64,000 nt of DNA. It comes from Naegleria gruberi (taxonomy: Eukaryota). Made by a program: the position numbers and the translations under genes. The notes beneath the pieces are model-generated. The model was not told the origin of the DNA and ran no database searches. It saw only the letters and a program-made list of their open reading frames with translations. Shown one piece after another: positions 1 to 35,898 of this stretch. The stretch lies in NCBI GenBank assembly GCA_000004985.1, contig GG738875.1; one strand, written 5' to 3'. The first letter of the stretch is position 1, and each line of letters opens with the position of its first letter.

Positions 1-2598
1 GATAATTCAACAAACTCTTCCTCCCAACAACATAATCCAATTCCAACTACCTCTTCATCCAATCCAACATCTTCCCCTAAAATACCAGCCCTTGAATCTG
101 AACCACCAACAGTCAAATTACCTTCAATTTATGCTGTTTTACTTAATGATAAGGATCCATACTTTAGTCAAGGCAAGGATCAAAATTCTGAAATTATTTA
201 TTTACGTCCTATTGCCAAGATGGTTGAAAATTCCAAGAAGAAACAATCATGCCATGCTCAATTTGGAAATAATATTGTCAAGAAGCAATCATCTCTAAGA
301 TCGAAAATTAGAGGTATTGTTGGTTCGAGGAGAATGGAAGAATTTAAAAAGCAAACAACAAGTGAGAGAGCTCAATCTAAAACATCAAGTTCAGCCGAAG
401 AGAGTGATAAGAAGGATCAATCATCAGAAAACAATTTAACCGTTGATGTTAAAACATCTTCATCAGATTTCAATCTCGATATGAATGATGATAATATCAT
501 GGCTTTTGGTTCAAGCGAAGATTTTGGCCTTATGTATGACGACATGATGGGACTGGATGATCAAGACTTTATGAGTACATTGATGAGTGATGATAATTTG
601 GGTTTATTGTCTGAACAGCCAAATTCCAACGTTTCAACACCATTACTAGATAGAGATTCCATGAGAAGATCTGGCTCTGCCATGAAACACGAAGTTTCAC
701 ATACGTCCCTAAGTTCCTTCCTTAGTTCGCCTGCCACACCAATGGCCAGCTTACCAGTCAACCCTTCACAAACCAAGGAAGGTCAAATGGTTTCAAATCA
801 AAGTAACTTTTGGGATAGTTCCATGAGCGGATCTCTTGATAATATTCCTGTTTCGAGTGGTAACTTTTTTATACCATCTGCTGCGAAAAACAGTTCATCA
901 TCTAATAGTATGAATGTTAGCAACAATAATATTAGTTCAAGCATGACAACTCCAAACGAAATGGTGAGAAAACAAGAAGTTTCCACGAGTAACAATATGG
1001 CACCAAGTCGAGGAGTCAATTCTCAAAATCCTGTTCCATCCAATCAAATGAGTAAACCTGCATCCAACAATTCAATGATGAATAATTTTAATACCTCTAA
1101 TAACATGAATAATACCATGAATAATAACTTGAATATGAATACTATTAATAACAACATGAATTCATTGATGAATAACATGAATAATTCCATGAATAGCAAT
1201 TCCATGATGGGAAATAACAAATCTATGAATAATAACATGAATAGTAATATGACTAATAATAATAATATGAGTACTATGAATAATAATAATAATCAACACA
1301 TGGGCCTGAATCAGCAAATGGCAGGAATGCAGAATAACATGTTTGCTAACAATAATGGTATGAACAACAGTGTACAAAATGACTCTACCAGTAATTTTGA
1401 TACCAACAATTTTTTCAATATCAGTACTGATACATTACTTCAAGGCATTCTTTATGCACAAAAGAGTGGAATTAATCTTGCATCTCTGTTTGCTCTCACT
1501 TTACAGCAACAACAAAATCAAGCTAGTTCCTACAACGAATCCACTAGTAATTTTGGTAATAGCTTTAAGAATAATAATCAATTCAATAACATGAACAATG
1601 GAAACATGTTCAATAATAACGTATTTTCCAACATGGGATCTGAAATGTTTCCAAATCAAAATCAAATAAGTCCATTCCCAAATAATCAACAACATAACCA
1701 ATTCCAAAAGAATCAAGATAATACTTCTCAATTATTGCTCCAAAAATTACTTGATTCTAATAATCAACAACTCAACTCCAATGTACAGAACTCCTTCTCT
1801 TCTAGGCAACAACACCAAAATGATAACATGTTCAACATGAATAGCAATAATAATTTGAGCTCTCAAATTGATTCGCTAATGATGAACAAGAACAATAATA
1901 ACATGTTAAACATGACTAATAATTCCCAAATGCTCTACAATCAATTGAACAATCAACAACAGGTAAAATTTAATCAAATTTCTTCTCCTCAAAACCAACA
2001 ACTCAATTCCCCTCGCCAAAACAACAACCAACATAATCCTCTAATGAACCCATCCAATCATAATAATATCAATAGATTTGTCAAGACTGAATCGGATCTT
2101 AACCTTTCAATGAATTCTCAACCAAATTGGAAAGAATCATATGAGGAACCTGAAGTTGTTTCACTCAGTACACCAAGAGCTGTAGGAAGCAAGTCAGAGA
2201 CTAAGCGAATCAAGATCAAACAAGATACAATTTCTTCACCTCCTCAACAACAACACCAACACACTTCTCCATCTCATGATGCTGGCAATGACTCTTCACA
2301 CGACGAAGATGATGAGTCTGTCTCCTCAAATCCACAATCTCCTGACAAAAGTGGAAAGAAGAAGCGTAAGTCACATGTTACAGCCAGTCAGGTAGGAATT
2401 GTTGAATTGGAGAATAATGAAGGATTTGAATGTTCTTATTGTTTGAGAAAATTCAAGAGAAAATCTGATATCAAAGTCCACATTAGAAGACACACAGGAG
2501 AGAGACCTTATATTTGTGAAATTGATGGTTGTGGAAAGGCATTTACTACTGCAAGTAACCTCAGAAGACATAACAGGAATGTTCACACTAAAGAGTAA
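1..2598 (+). CDS. 5'-partial N/Q/S-rich protein with two C-terminal C2H2 zinc fingers. The reading frame is open from window base 1; the first in-window ATG is at 220.
   Basis: Frame 1 has no stop between base 1 and the ATG at 220, so the gene starts upstream of the window. Long Asn-rich tract (NNMNN...). C-terminus carries the C2H2 pattern FECSYCLRKFKRKSDIKVHIRRH and YICEIDGCGKAFTTASNLRRHNRNVH. TAA stop at 2596-2598. Confidence 0.6.
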   Translation, partial: DNSTNSSSQQHNPIPTTSSSNPTSSPKIPALESEPPTVKLPSIYAVLLNDKDPYFSQGKDQNSEIIYLRPIAKMVENSKKKQSCHAQFGNNIVKKQSSLRSKIRGIVGSRRMEEFKKQTTSERAQSKTSSSAEESDKKDQSSENNLTVDVKTSSSDFNLDMNDDNIMAFGSSEDFGLMYDDMMGLDDQDFMSTLMSDDNLGLLSEQPNSNVSTPLLDRDSMRRSGSAMKHEVSHTSLSSFLSSPATPMASLPVNPSQTKEGQMVSNQSNFWDSSMSGSLDNIPVSSGNFFIPSAAKNSSSSNSMNVSNNNISSSMTTPNEMVRKQEVSTSNNMAPSRGVNSQNPVPSNQMSKPASNNSMMNNFNTSNNMNNTMNNNLNMNTINNNMNSLMNNMNNSMNSNSMMGNNKSMNNNMNSNMTNNNNMSTMNNNNNQHMGLNQQMAGMQNNMFANNNGMNNSVQNDSTSNFDTNNFFNISTDTLLQGILYAQKSGINLASLFALTLQQQQNQASSYNESTSNFGNSFKNNNQFNNMNNGNMFNNNVFSNMGSEMFPNQNQISPFPNNQQHNQFQKNQDNTSQLLLQKLLDSNNQQLNSNVQNSFSSRQQHQNDNMFNMNSNNNLSSQIDSLMMNKNNNNMLNMTNNSQMLYNQLNNQQQVKFNQISSPQNQQLNSPRQNNNQHNPLMNPSNHNNINRFVKTESDLNLSMNSQPNWKESYEEPEVVSLSTPRAVGSKSETKRIKIKQDTISSPPQQQHQHTSPSHDAGNDSSHDEDDESVSSNPQSPDKSGKKKRKSHVTASQVGIVELENNEGFECSYCLRKFKRKSDIKVHIRRHTGERPYICEIDGCGKAFTTASNLRRHNRNVHTKE

Positions 2599-2600
2599 AA

Positions 2601-2650
2601 NNNNNNNNNNNNNNNNNNNNNNNNNNNNNNNNNNNNNNNNNNNNNNNNNN
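2601..2650. other. Assembly gap, 50 N.
   Basis: Run of N. Confidence 0.95.
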
Positions 2651-2820: not shown

Positions 2821-4848
2821 ATGTCTAGCAAGTATTTCCCTCCACATACCTATTGGGATGGTCGATGTTTTCCCAGTCACATAACTTCCTTCGGTACTAA
2901 TAATTCTTCTTCTGCCAATTATTCATCATCATTTGATGAGAATAATGGTGATGAATTGGATGTCAAGACGTATATTGAAAGTCAACAGGATGATCAACCG
3001 ATTGGTTATACTCCGATGGGTTCTGCTGCATGGGATGAAGGTTGGCAAGATTTTGATAATGATTCCTCACCATCTTCTCCACAGCCAATAACAAAATCTT
3101 CATCAACAGTTAAACAATTCTTTGATGATAACTTTGTTTCTTTAGAAGGAGATGATAATACTGATCAATCAGCAGCAGCAATTGATCAAAGTGAGAAGAA
3201 TTCTTCCATCAAACCGAATGAAAAATCAAATTCTTTTGATATGGTTGTCTTGTTGCAAAAGTTTTCCTATTATTACTTATCAATTGTGAATAATGATAAT
3301 TGTGGAGATAGATTTGAAAATGTGGAGGAGAGTGATGTCTTTATGATTCGTCTGCCTTCAGAGACAATTCGTGCCTCGAAGAAATTACTGATATCTGAGA
3401 GTAATTTCTTTAAGTTAATGATTGAGAGTCAAATGAAAGAAGCGAATGAAAATCAAGTGGATTTTAGTGCTCTTTCGAATGAAGAGGAATTGGACACACT
3501 CAAGATTTTGAATTTTCTGAGATATGGTAATATAGGCGTGCCAATTAAGGGAACAGCTTTTCCTTTAAATTTGGAAGATTTTGGAAGTAATCTTATTGGG
3601 ATTGTGGATTTATTGAGATTATTGGATGTGGCTGATAAGTTTGGAGTTGCTTCTTTTATTGTGTCGGTGACGAGTATTCTGAATCAATATAATGTTATGA
3701 TATTACTTGAGAAAGCTCTTCAAATTACACCAGAATTGGGGAGCATTCTAATTGAAGCGTGCATTTCTGTAATTTCACATAATTTGCCCTGTGTTTTAGG
3801 TGGTTTAATCTATGAAGGGGTCATTGATCAATTTCTGGAACGAATTCCAACCAGTATAGACGAATGGAATAAGAAATGCAAGGAAACTTACAAGATATTC
3901 AAACAAATCCAAATGTTCAACATCAAAACCGATACCAAACTCTTCATGCTACAATCTTTAAAGACCAATCCAACAGTGAACTATCTGGTTGATGTTTTGC
4001 CGTGTGACATATTTTTGAGAGTTATGAAATGTACAAATCAGCTGTGTGTTGATGATTTTCTTGGATTAATCACATTGTGGATCTTATCGAGCTCTTTTGA
4101 AACATGCTTTCAAGATTATTCCACATTGGAAAATCTCGAAACTGACAATTTAATTTATAGATTGAGAGAAGGAATCATTCTTGCATTGGAAAATGTCAAC
4201 ATGATGAAAATGACTCACAATAGAAGCTTATTTATGCTTCTTCATCCAATTATGAGATATTACAGCAGATCCTATCCTTTGGAATTCCAAGATTTATTTT
4301 CGACATTTCTTGTGGAAACAGCAGATCCAAAAAACTCAATAGGTGATTACACCTCTTTACACATGCTGGCAACTCAGACCATTGCACCCATGCTAAAGAA
4401 ATGCTTTGGAGATCATCCAATTTTGCCTAAAAAAGATATTGCTGAGCTATATTATCAATTCTGTTTTGATTCCACAGATAATTCTTATACGACAGATAAT
4501 GCGCAAAGGATTATTCCTCAACTTTTTGCAAAAATAATCAAGGAACAGGAAAATGATGAGATCATTAATGAATTTTCAAAATTACTGACCTATGTCATGT
4601 TTCATCAGTTTGGCAAGTTTGTTGAACAAGTTCCTAAACCTGCATTACCAATAGAAAAATATAAGATAATTGGACAAAAGAACTCTTTGAAATCTTTCGA
4701 GGCTAACTTATTTGGATTGGACGCCTCAGGAAAGACACTTCTATTAGAGAGAATGAAATCCCCAAATTCTAATGAGGTAGTTCAAACTTTTCAAACGATT
4801 GGATTTAATAATGAAACTATTTCATATGGAGGTGCTCCTATTAATGTT
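2821..4848 (+). CDS. Exon 1 of a large BTB-like protein whose C-terminus is an Arf/Arl-like GTPase. This exon carries the BTB-like region and the GTPase G1 P-loop.
   Basis: BTB-like stretch DVFMIRLPSETIRASKKLLISESNFFKLMIESQ...LKILNFLRYGN. The exon ends in the Arf G1 motif LFGLDASGKT...TIGFNNETISYGGAPINV. GTAAGT donor at 4849, phase 0. Confidence 0.55.
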
Positions 4849-4895
4849 GTAAGTAGATTTTGAGTTTAGGATAATAATGTGTGGATTCTATTAAG

Positions 4896-5372
4896 GTTGA
4901 TGTTGGTGGGTCGGTAAGACTTAGAGGATTGTGGAAGAATTTCGTCTCACCAAATGCTCCTGATTTACTTGTCATGGTTGTTGACCTTTCCAATAGACAA
5001 AGATTCCAAGAAGCAAGAGAAAGTTTCGACAAACTAATGAACAATGTGGACACTCAACAAGATGATGGAAATGCCAAACCACTCTCTATTTTATTACTCG
5101 CCAATAAGACAGATTGCATACCAGATAAGGAACTTAGATCCGTCTTGGAATCAGAATTATTCAAGACATTCGAAACTTCTTCTTATTTATCAACATACAA
5201 CTTGTTGTGGAATAATTACCGATTCAAGTACATGTCCTGCTCTGCAAAGACTGGAGAGGGAATTGAGAATATTTGGAATTGGTTTTTTGAAAATGAATTC
5301 CTTAGTCAGTATTCAGTCGAGGAGAATCGTTACTTTATTCCTCTACCTTCATCAGCAGAATGGCTCGCCTAA
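4896..5372 (+). CDS. Exon 2 of the same gene: remainder of the Arf-like GTPase domain (DVGG, ANKTD and SAK motifs).
   Basis: The 47-nt intron 4849..4895 runs gtaagt...ttaag. Splicing gives ...APINV-VDVGGSVRLRGLWKNF, matching Arf WDVGGQ..R.LW. NKxD is present as ANKTD and SAK as CSAKTGEGI. The ORF-track start at 4881 is a GTG inside the intron. An independent start for an Arl gene alone cannot be excluded. Confidence 0.6.
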   Translation, partial: VDVGGSVRLRGLWKNFVSPNAPDLLVMVVDLSNRQRFQEARESFDKLMNNVDTQQDDGNAKPLSILLLANKTDCIPDKELRSVLESELFKTFETSSYLSTYNLLWNNYRFKYMSCSAKTGEGIENIWNWFFENEFLSQYSVEENRYFIPLPSSAEWLA

Positions 5373-5408: not shown

Positions 5409-6251
5409 TTATTTATTTTGTCTTTCTGCAATTAGTTTGCTATGATATTCCTTAATTTCTGGATCATTTCTCATTTCAAAAGGAGTATAACAAAGTACAT
5501 CAGGATTTTTTTCAATAGCTTTCATGACAATATCCTTTTGATTTCTCAAATCAGCTGAAGCATATTTGATGGCTAATCCATCTTTCTCAACAGCCAACAT
5601 GATAATTTCTCGATCATTCTTGATAGCAAAGGGTAATTTGTCAATAATGGTGGTATCTCCTTTAATAGCAATCTTTAGCAGCTCCCTATCGTTTTCAAAT
5701 TCTTTCAAACAAATAAAGGCACGTCCATTTTGTTTAACTGCCATTTCAGCAAGTTCTCTATCTTTCTGAAATTCTTCTGGGGCGTCTGCAATTGCACATC
5801 CATCATTTTCAATGGCTTTTCTAACAATTTCTCTATCATTTTTCAATTCATCACCCACACCTCTCAAAATTCTTCCATTATTGGCAACAGCTGCCATTAC
5901 AATCTCCCTATCATTTGAAAATTCCTTTGGAAGCCATGATAGATTACCACTACTAGCAGCAGCCATCACAATTTCCCTATCCTTCTCTAATCCATCACTT
6001 ATAATTCCATGTTTCTTTGCAGATGCAAGATTAACATCTCTATCCTTTTTCAATTTCTTTGGTATTTCATAGGACAAGTCATATTCACTCTTTTCAATAA
6101 GCTTTATAACAAACTCCTTATCATTCCACAATTTAAATTCTTTGGCAACTACCATCATATCAGATGCAGTTGACAATTTTGCAGTCTGCTCAATAATCAT
6201 TGAACGATCCTTAGAGAAAAATGGAACTTTACACGAATAATAAACGAACAT
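5409..6251 (-). CDS. DUF4116-type repeat protein with about nine tandem repeats of roughly 27 aa.
   Basis: Repeats fit the pattern DREIVMAAV..NG.AL.YA...L.ND.E, for example NDREIVMAAVANNGRILRG and NDREIIMLAVEKDGLAIKYAS. ATG at 6249-6251. Confidence 0.6.
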   Translation of the reverse strand: MFVYYSCKVPFFSKDRSMIIEQTAKLSTASDMMVVAKEFKLWNDKEFVIKLIEKSEYDLSYEIPKKLKKDRDVNLASAKKHGIISDGLEKDREIVMAAASSGNLSWLPKEFSNDREIVMAAVANNGRILRGVGDELKNDREIVRKAIENDGCAIADAPEEFQKDRELAEMAVKQNGRAFICLKEFENDRELLKIAIKGDTTIIDKLPFAIKNDREIIMLAVEKDGLAIKYASADLRNQKDIVMKAIEKNPDVLCYTPFEMRNDPEIKEYHSKLIAERQNK

Positions 6252-7610: not shown

Positions 7611-7892
7611 CTATGGTTTGCACGATTTTTTGTGGTCTTTCCAGGCATTAACTTGGCATTCTCTGGAGCAATAATGCACCTTTTTACATTTGGCACAAAC
7701 TTTAAGATTCTGTGTCGAACCACACACTGCACATGTTTTGAGTATTTTTGGTATGGTTGCAATCGCCATTCGTGGTTCATTACGTGTTGGTTGTGAGTTT
7801 GGTGGCTTGATTTTTTCCAAATCCTCCTCTGTTAATAACTTCCTCAAGGATTTTTTCAAATTTAAATTTGTATCATAGTATTGAGGTTCCAA
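7611..7892 (-). CDS. Small MYND-type zinc finger protein.
   Basis: CAVCGSTQNLKVCAKCKKVHYCSRECQVNAWKDHKKSC matches the MYND spacing C-x2-C...C-x2-C...YCS..CQ...W..HK..C. Confidence 0.5.
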   Translation of the reverse strand: MEPQYYDTNLNLKKSLRKLLTEEDLEKIKPPNSQPTRNEPRMAIATIPKILKTCAVCGSTQNLKVCAKCKKVHYCSRECQVNAWKDHKKSCKP

Positions 7893-10422: not shown

Positions 10423-13327
10423 TAGTGGACAAGAACGATACAAATCATTGCCAGCAATGTACTTTAGAGGAGCTTATGCAGCTCTTGTGGTGTATGATAT
10501 TACCGATGCAGAGTCGTTCATACAAGCCCAAAAGTGGGTGACACTAGTTCAACAAGGTAATTCGACATTAGTAATTGCTCTTGCTGGTAATAATGCGCAC
10601 TTGGAGGATAAACGTCAAGTCGAGACATTTGAAGCCAAAGCATATGCTGAAAAGCATTCACTAATTTTCATGGAAACCTCAGCCAATACTGCTCAAAATG
10701 TTAATGAAATTTTTACTGCCCTAGCTCGCAAAATGCCAGTCGATACATCAATAGAAAGGGTGATGGCTTTTGAAGCTGTGAGGGAAAATTGGACAGTATT
10801 CAAATCACTTCAAGAAAACTTTAAAAGTGACAGAGACATTGCACTACTTGCAATTAGGAAAAATGGGTTGGCCTTAGAATTTGTATCAGTGGAACTGAAG
10901 AATGACAAATTATTGGTTCTTGATGCTGTGGAAAATCAAGGAATTGCATTGCAATATGCTTCAATGAATTTGAGGGCAGATAAGGAAGTGGTTCTTAGAG
11001 CTGTCAAAAATAATGGACTTGCTCTACAATATACCACAACAGAGAATTGCTCAGATGAAAAAATTATTCTGGATGCTATTGAAAATGATGTAACCTCCTT
11101 TCAGTTTGCTTCACAGGAAAAAAGATTTGATAAGGAATTTGTGAGAAAGGCAATATCAAAGGATTGTAAATGTTTTAATTTTACAGAATTGCAACACGAT
11201 ACTGAAATAATTCTCTTTGCTTTAGAGAATGGATATTCTCTCAAATATGCAAGCATGGAGCAACGAAACCATAGACCCTTGATATTGGAAGCAGTTAAAA
11301 AAGATGGAAATGCTCTTCGCTATGCCCCAAAATATTTACAAGACATTGAGCTAATTTTTATAGCCATTAATAATGGATTTACAAATCCAAAAAACATACT
11401 CACAAACGAACATTTAATATTGCAAGGTTTTACAAGAAATGTTATCAGTTTTCCAGATATTCCGAAAGAATTCAGAAACAACAAACAAATTTTGATGGAA
11501 ATAATAGCAAGATTTACAAAATTATATAATAACTCAAAGATGGAATATTACCAAGACATATCAAAATTTCAATCACTCTACAAGAGTGATCTAAAAATTT
11601 CATTAATGAATAATATTTTACAATCTTCAATAGATTCACATGCTATTACATGTTATGAATTGTTTCATGACTTGATTTTAATCGACACATTAAAAAGAGA
11701 AGAGCTCAGAAATTGGGGAAGGAAATGTAGAATGACATTGATATGGGCACAATATATTCCTGGCTTGTTACAATACTTGTCAAAAAACCATGTACCAAAT
11801 ATTGATTTAGAATTGGCAGTATATTTTTCCAATTACAGACCTAGAGGTACCTTTTCATTTAAAAGAACATATCCAAAGGAAATGTGGATAGAACTTAATC
11901 TTCTCAAGGAGATTTCTAATCATATCACCAAATTTAATTTAAGATCAGAATTAATTTTGGATTATCCATTTTACAATTCAAATTACTACCTGTTACTAGA
12001 TTTTATTACTAATATCATTAATGGATCTTTACAGGAAGTTAATTTCCAAAATATCAATTCATACACGTTTAATTTTTCAGATATATTTAACAAGGAATGT
12101 ACGGATACATTAATTTCAACTTGGATATCCCTAGATAATTTTCCAAAATTGTCCTCAATTTCAGAATTATTGAATCAAAATAAGGAAATATATTTGGAAG
12201 AGAGAGGTTATGCTTCTATAATACATTCAAAGTTTCCACTCTATATACCCACATCTATACTTGGAAAGGGCGCTGAAGGTATCGTTTTTGAATGTTATAA
12301 TGTTAAAGAAAGAAAAACGGTGGCATTCAAATTGAACTTTCAATATAATTTACAAGATCATGTAATAGTTGAATTATTAATGAAAAATATTGATGGAATA
12401 ATTCACTGTCATGAATGTAACGTATTTGAATATTCTGACAAGAAAATCAAATATATCATTATGGAAAAAGGGGAAAAAATTGGGCCTGCACTAGAGGACA
12501 TTTACAATAGAAACAATAATATGCTTGACAAGGAATCACTCACAACAATTCTACAAATGTTTGTACAAATATTACTGGCAGTGAATAATTTACATAACAA
12601 TAATTTTGCCCATCGAGATTTGAAACTCGCTAATATGGTTCTAGTAGGTGATACTATTAAGATTATCGATTTGGATTCCTCGAGAGTTATCATGACTAAC
12701 AAATCTTGCACATTGAATATTGGCACACTGAAATATATTGCCCCAGAATTATATAATAATGAAAGTGAAAGAATTTTACAGAACTTTGAAATATCCAAAC
12801 AATGTGACATGTTTTCTTTGGGATGTATATTATTGGAAATACTCATTCATCAACCCTTAATGTTAGACTCTGAATATTGTAATCAGGAGCAAATGGAAGA
12901 TGATCTAAATATCCAGCATTTTACAAATTCTGGATTGTACTTTCATCAAGCTGTTGGCACACAATACCTTCAACACAAGCTCCATCATGCAATCAAAATG
13001 CAAATAGATAGAATGGTTGATTCTTCATTAGAAATTAATACAATCCTCTCTAGGATAATCATTACAATGATTCAACAAAATCCAAACCTCAGAGGCAATT
13101 GTGCTATGTATTTACAAATATTTAAAGAACTATTATTGTCCTTAAACAATAGTCAACCACTAATACTACCAGAAACTTTAACCAAAAATCTACTTGATTT
13201 TAATAAGAATATTATTACATTGTTAAAAGAAGAAAACTTGCAGCTTAAAACAAAGAATGAACAATTGGAAATGGAATTGATTAAATTAAGAGAAGAATTA
13301 ACTTTTCTTTCACACAAGAATAAATAG
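10423..13327 (+). CDS. Exon 3 of the Rab5-like fusion gene: rest of the GTPase domain, about seven DUF4116 repeats, a Ser/Thr-type protein kinase domain and a C-terminal coiled coil.
   Basis: Intron 2 is 10358..10422 (65 nt, ...ttatag). SGQERYKSLPAMYFRGA continues the Rab domain, with the NKxD motif present as AGNNAHL and ETSANT as the SAK equivalent. No CAAX/CC tail. DUF4116 repeats follow (SDRDIALLAIRKNGLALEFVS...). Kinase motifs are GKGAEGIV, VAFK, HRDLKLANMVL, an IIDLDSS DFG variant and YIAPE. The tail is QLKTKNEQLEMELIKLREEL. Confidence 0.65.
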
Positions 13328-18143: not shown

Positions 18144-18193
18144 NNNNNNNNNNNNNNNNNNNNNNNNNNNNNNNNNNNNNNNNNNNNNNNNNN
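18144..18193. other. Assembly gap, 50 N.
   Basis: Run of N inside the 18194..18903 gene. Confidence 0.95.
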
Positions 18194-33790: not shown

Positions 33791-33840
33791 NNNNNNNNNN
33801 NNNNNNNNNNNNNNNNNNNNNNNNNNNNNNNNNNNNNNNN
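33791..33840. other. Assembly gap, 50 N, at the 5' boundary of the duplicated NTPase segment.
   Basis: Run of N. The flanking left sequence is not homologous to copy 1; the right flank is. Confidence 0.95.
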
Positions 33841-35848: not shown

Positions 35849-35898
35849 NNNNNNNNNNNNNNNNNNNNNNNNNNNNNNNNNNNNNNNNNNNNNNNNNN
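35849..35898. other. Assembly gap, 50 N, between the NTPase copy-2 tail and 7TM copy 3.
   Basis: Run of N. Confidence 0.95.

What the first reader, a model, noticed from the sequence alone, without database searches (positions are those of the whole stretch)
2821..5372. BTB-domain protein ending in an Arf/Arl-like GTPase, split by a 47-nt intron
The 676-codon first exon ends in the Arf G1 region (LFGLDASGKT...TIGFN). After a GTAAGT...TTAAG intron the frame resumes with the diagnostic Arf switch-II motif, giving INV-VDVGGSVRLRGLW, followed by the NKxD-like and SAK motifs. The Arf domain therefore needs the splice to be complete. Whether the 5' BTB-containing 600 aa belongs to the same protein or an internal start gives a stand-alone Arl is unresolved. 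BTB-Arf fusions are unusual.
Basis: partly seen in the sequence, partly recalled or inferred. Interest (0 to 1): 0.55.

Follow-up and report, generated by a model that had tools for sequence, protein, structure and literature searches.

The report
Naegleria BTB–Arf fusion protein NgrArlX2
This is a real two-exon Naegleria gruberi gene for one 834-residue protein that joins a BTB (ubiquitin-ligase adaptor type) domain to a C-terminal Arf-like GTPase; a 2021 survey of the ARF family already lists it as NgrArlX2, so it is correctly read but not new.

Summary
Exon 1 (2821-4848, 676 codons) and exon 2 (4896-5372) are joined by removing a 47-nt GTAAGT...AG intron. The product is an 834-aa protein whose Pfam Arf match (E=2.4e-25) runs unbroken across the junction.

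A Naegleria lovaniensis homolog has a 135-nt intron at exactly the same codon boundary.

Full-length colinear homologs exist in N. fowleri, N. lovaniensis and Willaertia magna. Two N-terminal motifs are conserved in them.

The catalytic switch-II Gln is replaced (Ser here; Leu, Met or Thr in relatives). The Cul3-contact phi-x-E motif is present (M205-K206-E207).

The most likely function, which is inferred and not shown, is a Cul3 adaptor carrying a slowly hydrolysing or non-hydrolysing Arf-like module, analogous to RhoBTB and TRIM23.

The exact protein is listed with "BTB" as NgrArlX2 (XP_002675878.1, corrected model) in Vargová et al. 2021. It is already known and of low to moderate interest.

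The parts
2821..4848 (+). Exon 1 (676 codons): N-terminal motif, disordered S/D/N-rich region, BTB, helical middle region, and the first part of the Arf domain (G1 and switch I)
   Evidence: Open frame and translation. Its first 399 aa are identical to the published NgrArlX2 sequence.
2845..2874 (+). Conserved N-terminal motif HTYWDGRCFP (aa 9-18), matching the family pattern [S/P]H[W/F]Y[C]D...FP
   Evidence: Alignment A4 with the N-termini of 8 homologs. Supports the ATG at 2821 as the start.
3256..3279 (+). Second conserved pre-BTB motif QKFSYYYL (aa 146-153; family pattern IQxxxYYYL)
   Evidence: Q146 is invariant in alignment A4.
3322..3810 (+). BTB/POZ domain with the following 3-box-like helices (about aa 168-330), including the phi-x-E motif M205-K206-E207 (3433-3441)
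3811..4686 (+). All-helical middle region (about aa 331-622). Its first part looks BACK-like (LPxxLLxxIL...W...R, with an invariant Trp). Its later part is a poorly conserved helical linker.
   Evidence: Alignments A1 and A2, with an invariant W. Pfam BACK gives only weak hits, in 3 of 13 members, best E 0.022. AF2 pLDDT falls below 50 after about aa 500.
4687..4848 (+). Arf domain, 5' part: P-loop GLDASGKT, switch I TIGFN, interswitch strand
   Evidence: Pfam Arf aa 623-808. PDB Arf6/Arf1 E about 1e-16.
4849..4895 (+). 47-nt phase-0 spliceosomal intron, GTAAGT...TTAAG
   Evidence: The N. lovaniensis homolog has an intron at the same position (135 nt, GTAGGT...CATAG, EILV|RDIGG). ORF-only gene calls of further homologs stop just past this point (P0001, P0003, P0010, P0032).
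4896..5372 (+). Exon 2 (158 codons plus stop): G3 DVGGS (catalytic Gln replaced by Ser682), NKTD, a G4-G5 insertion, CSAK, and the C-terminal tail YFIPLPSSAEWLA

Best explanation
The locus is the Naegleria gruberi gene for NgrArlX2 (RefSeq XP_002675878.1, corrected model). It is a single 834-aa protein made from two exons.

Architecture, from N- to C-terminus:
- a short conserved N-terminal motif;
- a disordered linker;
- a BTB domain with 3-box/BACK-like helices;
- a helical linker;
- a C-terminal ARF-family GTPase domain, which is complete only after a conserved phase-0 intron just before the DxGG motif is removed.

The protein belongs to a family found so far in the named heteroloboseans Naegleria and Willaertia.

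Proposed mechanism (inferred):
- The BTB domain dimerises and docks onto Cullin-3 through its phi-x-E surface.
- The Arf-like domain keeps all nucleotide-binding motifs but lacks the catalytic Gln, the Walker-B Trp and the N-terminal amphipathic helix.
- It would therefore act as a largely GTP-bound recognition or regulatory module that brings partners to the ligase, or gates the ligase. This is an Arf counterpart of RhoBTB and TRIM23.

What is shown: gene structure, domain identity, conservation of the fusion and of the intron, and the motif states. What is inferred: Cul3 binding, nucleotide state and targets.
For: - Splice and Arf domain.
- Identity with published NgrArlX2, annotated 'BTB'.
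- Homolog family from an exhaustive HMMER search.
- Species of the named members (N. fowleri, N. lovaniensis, Willaertia magna).
- Colinear BLASTP to N. fowleri XP_044564436.1 over aa 192-807, E=1e-69.
- Same intron position in N. lovaniensis.
- Pfam BTB in 10 of 13 members.
- phi-x-E: window M205-K206-E207 is aligned to SPOP M-E-E. The role of the motif is described in PMC3616122.
- GTPase motif states in the window protein and its relatives.
- Conserved N-terminal motifs.
Against: - No transcript evidence was available here. Splicing and the start codon rest on comparative and consensus arguments.
- A 50-N assembly gap (2601-2650) lies 170 bp upstream of the ATG, so the 5' region is incomplete.
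- The BTB Pfam score of this particular protein is below the gathering threshold.
- The BACK assignment is weak.
- Flank synteny with the N. lovaniensis locus was not detected, so strict orthology is unproven.
- Cul3 binding, GTP binding and GTP hydrolysis are untested.
- Many BTB proteins do not bind Cul3.
Confidence: 0.75

Rival explanations
1. The BTB domain serves only as a dimerisation or oligomerisation scaffold with no cullin link. The protein would then be a dimeric, atypical Arf-like GTPase acting in membrane traffic or cytoskeletal regulation.
For: - Some family members (P0014, P0016) keep a fully canonical Arf1-like domain with DVGGQ, which is compatible with ordinary Arf signalling.
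Against: - The best sequence and fold matches are all Cul3 adaptors (SPOP, KBTBD2, KBTBD4, KLHL3, KLHL11, KLHL22, KEAP1, A55).
- The phi-x-E motif is conserved across the family.
- Helices follow the BTB as in 3-box/BACK proteins.
Confidence: 0.2
2. The Arf-like domain is a degenerate pseudo-GTPase. It no longer cycles or binds nucleotide and is kept as a structural or interaction module.
For: - The catalytic Gln is replaced (S here; L, M, S or T in relatives).
- The Walker-B Trp is replaced (V here; R or T in relatives).
- There is an insertion between G4 and G5.
- There is no N-terminal amphipathic helix.
- Vargová et al. could not assign it to any ARF orthogroup ('ArlX').
Against: - All residues that contact nucleotide remain intact in the window protein: GxxxxGKT, switch-I Thr, DxxG, NKxD, SAK.
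- The Pfam Arf match is strong and full length.
Confidence: 0.15
3. There are two products: the upstream 600 aa is a separate protein, and a stand-alone Arl is made from an internal start. Alternatively the intron is not removed and the protein ends at 4863.
For: The original RefSeq model needed correction.
Against: - The ORF is continuous from 2821.
- The only Mets near the domain (M593, M645) are not followed by Gly, and M645 lies after the P-loop.
- The fusion is colinear in annotated N. fowleri, N. lovaniensis and Willaertia proteins.
- The unspliced product would carry only G1 and switch I.
- The intron position is conserved, while the intron differs in length and sequence and carries stop codons in N. 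lovaniensis.
Confidence: 0.03

Closest known systems
NgrArlX2 (Naegleria gruberi XP_002675878.1, corrected model) in Vargová et al. 2021, Genome Biol Evol 13:evab157, Supplementary Table 1
   Same: It is the same protein. The 399 residues printed in the table are an exact prefix of the spliced product. The table lists the extra domain 'BTB', no TM segment and no orthogroup assignment.
   Different: The paper only catalogues it. It does not discuss the loss of the catalytic Gln, the phi-x-E motif, the conserved N- and C-terminal motifs, the conserved intron, or the homologs in N. fowleri, N. lovaniensis and Willaertia.
NgrArf1j/k/l and other heterolobosean BTB-Arf proteins (e.g. N. lovaniensis XP_044555330.1, Willaertia magna KAL9655481.1)
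   Same: Same N-motif, BTB, helical region and Arf architecture. They align over the whole length.
   Different: Those paralogs keep a canonical Arf1-like WDVGGQ and lack the G4-G5 insertion. The window protein and its closest relatives are much more divergent.
RhoBTB proteins (atypical Rho GTPase plus BTB domains; Cul3 adaptors) - recalled from general knowledge, not tested here
   Same: A small GTPase domain with impaired catalytic machinery is fused to BTB in one polypeptide. A link to Cul3 ligases is presumed.
   Different: In RhoBTB the GTPase is of the Rho family, sits at the N-terminus and is followed by two BTB domains. Here a single BTB precedes a C-terminal Arf-family domain. The origin is independent.
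TRIM23/ARD1 (RING, B-box, coiled coil, C-terminal Arf)
   Same: A ubiquitin-ligase module lies N-terminal to a C-terminal Arf domain that lacks its own myristoylated helix. Vargová et al. cite it as the parallel case.
   Different: TRIM23 is itself a RING E3 and is restricted to holozoans. No RING or B-box was found here. The ligase link here would be indirect, through BTB and Cul3.
BTB-BACK-Kelch / SPOP-type Cul3 adaptors
   Same: Best sequence-profile and fold matches for aa about 168-330. The phi-x-E motif is present.
   Different: There is no Kelch or MATH substrate-binding domain. An Arf-like GTPase takes the C-terminal position. The BACK signature is only weak.
Malawimonas californiana Rab-BTB-BACK-Arf protein (Vargová et al. 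2021, Fig. 8A)
   Same: BTB(-BACK) precedes a C-terminal Arf domain.
   Different: That protein has an additional N-terminal Rab domain and comes from an unrelated lineage. No sequence comparison was made here.

Membership tests
ARF family GTPase (Pfam PF00025) | Significant full-length match to the Arf profile | tested here: met
   E=2.4e-25, 89.4 bits against a cutoff of 22.3, model positions 12-172 of 174, aa 623-808. PDB Arf6/Arf1 E about 1e-16.
ARF family GTPase (Pfam PF00025) | Nucleotide-binding motifs G1 GxxxxGK[ST], switch-I Thr, G3 DxxG, G4 NKxD, G5 SAK/CAT | tested here: met
   GLDASGKT 632-639, T659 in QTIGFN, DVGG 678-681, NKTD 746-749, CSAK 791-794.
ARF family GTPase (Pfam PF00025) | Canonical Walker-B/switch-II WDxGGQ with the catalytic Gln | tested here: not met
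   The sequence is VDVGGS: W becomes V and Q becomes S682. Relatives have L, M, S or T at the Gln position, while the Arf1-like BTB paralogs keep Q.
ARF family GTPase (Pfam PF00025) | N-terminal amphipathic helix, usually with a Gly2 myristoylation site | tested here: not met
   The domain starts at about aa 623 of 834, with no Met-Gly nearby. The published table gives no myristoylation call.
ARF family GTPase (Pfam PF00025) | GTP binding and GAP-stimulated hydrolysis | not testable with these tools
   Needs biochemistry.
BTB/POZ domain (Pfam PF00651) | Profile match above the curated threshold | tested here: inconclusive
   This protein scores 17.3-19.7 bits against a cutoff of 20.5. Its aligned homologs pass (10 of 13, best 1.8e-10), and the family profile hits the SPOP BTB at 1.5e-10.
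BTB/POZ domain (Pfam PF00651) | BTB fold | tested here: met
Cul3 substrate adaptor (BTB-3-box/BACK type) | phi-x-E motif in the alpha3 region that inserts into Cul3 | tested here: met
   M205-K206-E207 is aligned to the family consensus M-I-E and to SPOP M-E-E. Motif definition from PMC3616122.
Cul3 substrate adaptor (BTB-3-box/BACK type) | BACK domain after the BTB | tested here: inconclusive
Cul3 substrate adaptor (BTB-3-box/BACK type) | Physical binding to Cullin-3 | not testable with these tools
   Needs a pull-down or ITC, or at least a complex prediction with N. gruberi Cul3.
RhoBTB | N-terminal Rho-family GTPase followed by tandem BTB domains | tested here: not met
   The GTPase is of the Arf family and C-terminal, and there is a single BTB.
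TRIM23/ARD1 | RING, B-box and coiled-coil block N-terminal to the Arf domain | tested here: not met
   No RING or B-box Pfam hit at E<=1.

The most novel reading that the evidence does not exclude
The Naegleria/Willaertia BTB-Arf proteins would be an independently evolved class of Cullin-3 substrate receptors. In it an Arf-family domain replaces the Kelch or MATH domain, and in the ArlX2 branch that domain is locked by loss of the catalytic Gln. Ubiquitylation would then be directed by the nucleotide state or by Arf-effector-type interactions at membranes: an 'ArfBTB' counterpart of RhoBTB.
Probability: 0.35. Interest if true: 0.45.

Novelty: already known. Interest (0 to 1): 0.22.

Why it matters
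The finding shows that the raw-sequence reading (splice, domains, fusion) was accurate, and it closes the one-gene-or-two question by comparative evidence.

Biologically, the protein is one example of small GTPases being recruited repeatedly into ubiquitin-ligase architectures (RhoBTB, TRIM23, F-box-Arf, BTB-Arf). The literature has already noted this for this protein.

This analysis adds some detail to the catalogue entry:
- the family extends to the pathogen N. fowleri, and to N. lovaniensis and Willaertia;
- the intron before DxGG is conserved;
- the ArlX2 branch has lost the catalytic Gln while keeping the Cul3-contact motif.

Function remains untested. The value is as a lead for Naegleria cell biology, not as a surprise.

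Tried and rejected
- The word-indexed homolog search with the full spliced protein found nothing. The exhaustive HMMER search and a profile query did work.
- The spliced sequence could not be submitted to the representative search, to structure prediction or to the contig look-up, because it is not a literal window translation. Exon-1 translations were used instead.
- Single-sequence AlphaFold of exon 1 was useless (pLDDT 36). It was repeated with a 15-sequence alignment.
- No paralog of the gene exists elsewhere in the window (tblastn).
- Synteny between the window flanks and the N. lovaniensis locus was not detected.
- A literature search for Naegleria + BTB + Arf gave nothing relevant. The relevant paper, Vargová et al., had come from an earlier search.
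- Alternative splice pairs were enumerated and rejected. 4846/4895 would delete one residue and has a poor donor; the others delete the DVGG motif or switch I.
- The 21-nt 'intron' ending at the internal TTTAG was rejected by inspection of the sequence. It is too short and leads to a wrong frame with a stop.

Full report
**Observation**

The + strand carries an ATG at 2821 that opens a 676-codon frame ending ...SYGGAPINV at 4848.
- Read through, the frame stops five codons later, at 4861-4863.
- Removing 4849-4895 (47 nt, GTAAGT...TTAAG) joins it in phase 0 to VDVGGSVRLRGLW..., and the frame then runs to the stop at 5370-5372.
- The spliced product is 834 aa.

I enumerated every GT-AG pair around the junction. 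Eight keep the frame open. Only 4849/4895 combines a consensus GTAAGT donor with retention of the DVGG motif at the spacing seen in Arf proteins.

Pfam's Arf model matches aa 623-808 in a single stretch across the junction (E=2.4e-25, 89.4 bits). The alignment to Arf6 is ungapped at the junction: FNVWDVGGQ against INVVDVGGS.

**Identity**

A full-text search led to Vargová et al. 2021 (PMC8358228). Its Supplementary Table 1 lists, under Naegleria gruberi, 'NgrArlX2':
- accession XP_002675878.1;
- flagged as a corrected protein model;
- additional domain 'BTB';
- no orthogroup assignment;
- no transmembrane segment;
- predicted palmitoyl-Cys C314.

The 399 residues printed there are an exact prefix of my spliced protein, and residue 314 is indeed Cys. 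The window is therefore N. gruberi sequence and the gene is already catalogued as a BTB-containing ARF-family member. The same table lists three more N. gruberi BTB-Arf proteins (NgrArf1j/k/l). [quoted passage not shown]

**One protein or two**

An exhaustive HMMER search with exon 1 found 22 hits. The best eleven share the region between the BTB and the Arf domain. Named cluster members come from N. fowleri, N. lovaniensis and Willaertia magna.
- N. fowleri XP_044564436.1 (945 aa) aligns colinearly with the window protein from aa 192 to 807, covering BTB, middle region and Arf (E=1e-69).
- A profile search added N. lovaniensis C9374_004710 (952 aa).
- Two short motifs before the BTB are conserved. 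One is [S/P]H[W/F]Y[C]D...FP at the extreme N-terminus (window aa 9-18). The other is IQxxxYYYL (window aa 146-153). These support the ATG at 2821.
- Near the Arf domain the only Mets are M593 and M645. Neither is followed by Gly, and M645 lies after the P-loop.

A stand-alone Arl from an internal start is therefore very unlikely.

**The intron**

In the N. lovaniensis genomic locus (L001) the homolog has a 135-nt intron (GTAGGT...CATAG, with in-frame stops) at exactly the same codon boundary: EILV|RDIGG against PINV|VDVGG in the window.

Several ORF-only gene calls of further homologs from metagenome or Logan contigs end a few codons after the equivalent position with V-S..., as expected when a caller reads into GTAAGT (P0001, P0003, P0010, P0032). 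This is indirect evidence. Position is conserved while length and sequence are not, which is good comparative evidence for a real intron. No transcript data were available.

**BTB**

On its own the window protein scores below Pfam's BTB threshold (17.3-19.7 bits against 20.5). Three lines of evidence nevertheless establish a BTB domain at about aa 168-330:
- Homologs that align with it pass the threshold, 10 of 13, with a best E of 1.8e-10.
- A profile of the family's BTB and middle region hits solved BTB domains of Cul3 adaptors: SPOP 1.5e-10, KBTBD2 3.4e-8, then KBTBD4, KLHL3, KLHL11, KLHL22 and KEAP1.

The phi-x-E motif is the main Cul3-contact element of SPOP, KLHL3 and KLHL11 (PMC3616122). 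It is present as M205-K206-E207 and is conserved as M-x-E across the family.

The helices that follow include an LPxxLLxxIL...W...R pattern with an invariant Trp. From memory this resembles a BACK domain, but Pfam BACK gives only weak hits (3 of 13, best E 0.022). I rate the BACK assignment as inconclusive.

**The GTPase**

All nucleotide-contacting motifs are intact: GLDASGKT, the switch-I Thr, DVGG, NKTD and CSAK. Three canonical features are missing:
- The catalytic switch-II Gln is Ser682.
- The Walker-B Trp is Val.
- There is no N-terminal amphipathic helix or Gly2.

The closest relatives also lack the Gln: Leu in N. fowleri, Met in N. lovaniensis, Ser or Thr in other paralogs. The Arf1-like BTB paralogs (P0014, P0016) keep WDVGGQ. 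The ArlX2 branch also has an insertion between G4 and G5. From established knowledge of Arf Q71 mutants, loss of this Gln predicts slow or absent hydrolysis. That is an inference.

**Mechanism**

The best-supported reading is a Cul3-type BTB adaptor whose C-terminal position is occupied by an atypical Arf-like domain. In KLHL and SPOP proteins the substrate-binding domain is a Kelch or MATH domain. The Arf-like domain would be mostly GTP-bound and would act as a recognition or regulatory module. This is analogous to RhoBTB and TRIM23.
- Shown: gene structure, domains, conserved fusion, conserved intron, and motif states.
- Inferred: Cul3 binding, nucleotide state and targets.

Rivals:
- BTB as a mere dimerisation scaffold, confidence 0.2.
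- A pseudo-GTPase module, confidence 0.15.
- Two separate products or no splicing, confidence 0.03.

**Novelty and score**

The exact protein and its BTB-Arf architecture are published. What is added here is family-level detail: extension to N. fowleri, N. lovaniensis and Willaertia, the conserved intron, loss of Gln with a retained phi-x-E motif, and the conserved terminal motifs. A specialist would not be surprised. Interest is 0.22.

Noticed in passing
window 10448-13327 (+): A 959-aa ORF combines the C-terminal half of a Ras-family GTPase domain (model positions 66-160, so the N-terminal half probably lies on an upstream exon), five DUF4116 repeats and a protein kinase domain. It is another multidomain small-GTPase fusion in the same window.
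   Followed up: no
window 5409-6251 (-): A 280-aa protein made of six DUF4116 repeats (E=1.2e-68) converges on the Arf gene. Its stop codon lies only 36 nt from the Arf gene's stop at 5372, so the two 3' UTRs must be very short or overlap.
   Followed up: no
window 2601-2650, 18144-18193, 33791-33840, 35849-35898: There are four assembly gaps of exactly 50 N. The first starts 2 nt after the stop of the upstream zinc-finger gene and ends 170 nt before the ATG at 2821, so the promoter and 5' UTR of the BTB-Arf gene are incomplete in this assembly.
   Followed up: partly
window 220-2598 (+): The upstream neighbour is a 792-aa protein that is extremely N/S/Q-rich, with C2H2 zinc fingers only at the very C-terminus.
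   Followed up: no
window 5332-5369 (aa 822-834) and homolog C-termini: A short tail motif after the Arf domain (YFIPLPSSAEWLA here; FGEIAHILEYI, YFGSLSSSAFEY and FGSISSLS in homologs) recurs across otherwise divergent family members. Its function is unknown.
   Followed up: partly
window 5059-5190 (about aa 747-790), and N. fowleri / N. lovaniensis homologs: There is an insertion between the NKxD and SAK motifs of the Arf domain. It is about 20-25 residues here and about 60 in N. fowleri and N. lovaniensis. It is absent from canonical Arf1 and from the Arf1-like BTB paralogs.
   Followed up: partly
L001 5237-5316 (N. lovaniensis homolog): The N. lovaniensis gene model has a second intron of about 80 nt in the region after the BTB domain (after aa 412). 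It has no counterpart in the N. gruberi gene, whose exon 1 is uninterrupted there. The annotated model was not checked against transcripts.
   Followed up: no
window 7611-7892 (-): A small 93-aa ORF with a C-terminal MYND zinc finger (E=3.2e-11). It starts with TTG in the mechanical ORF list, so its true start or exon structure is unclear.
   Followed up: no
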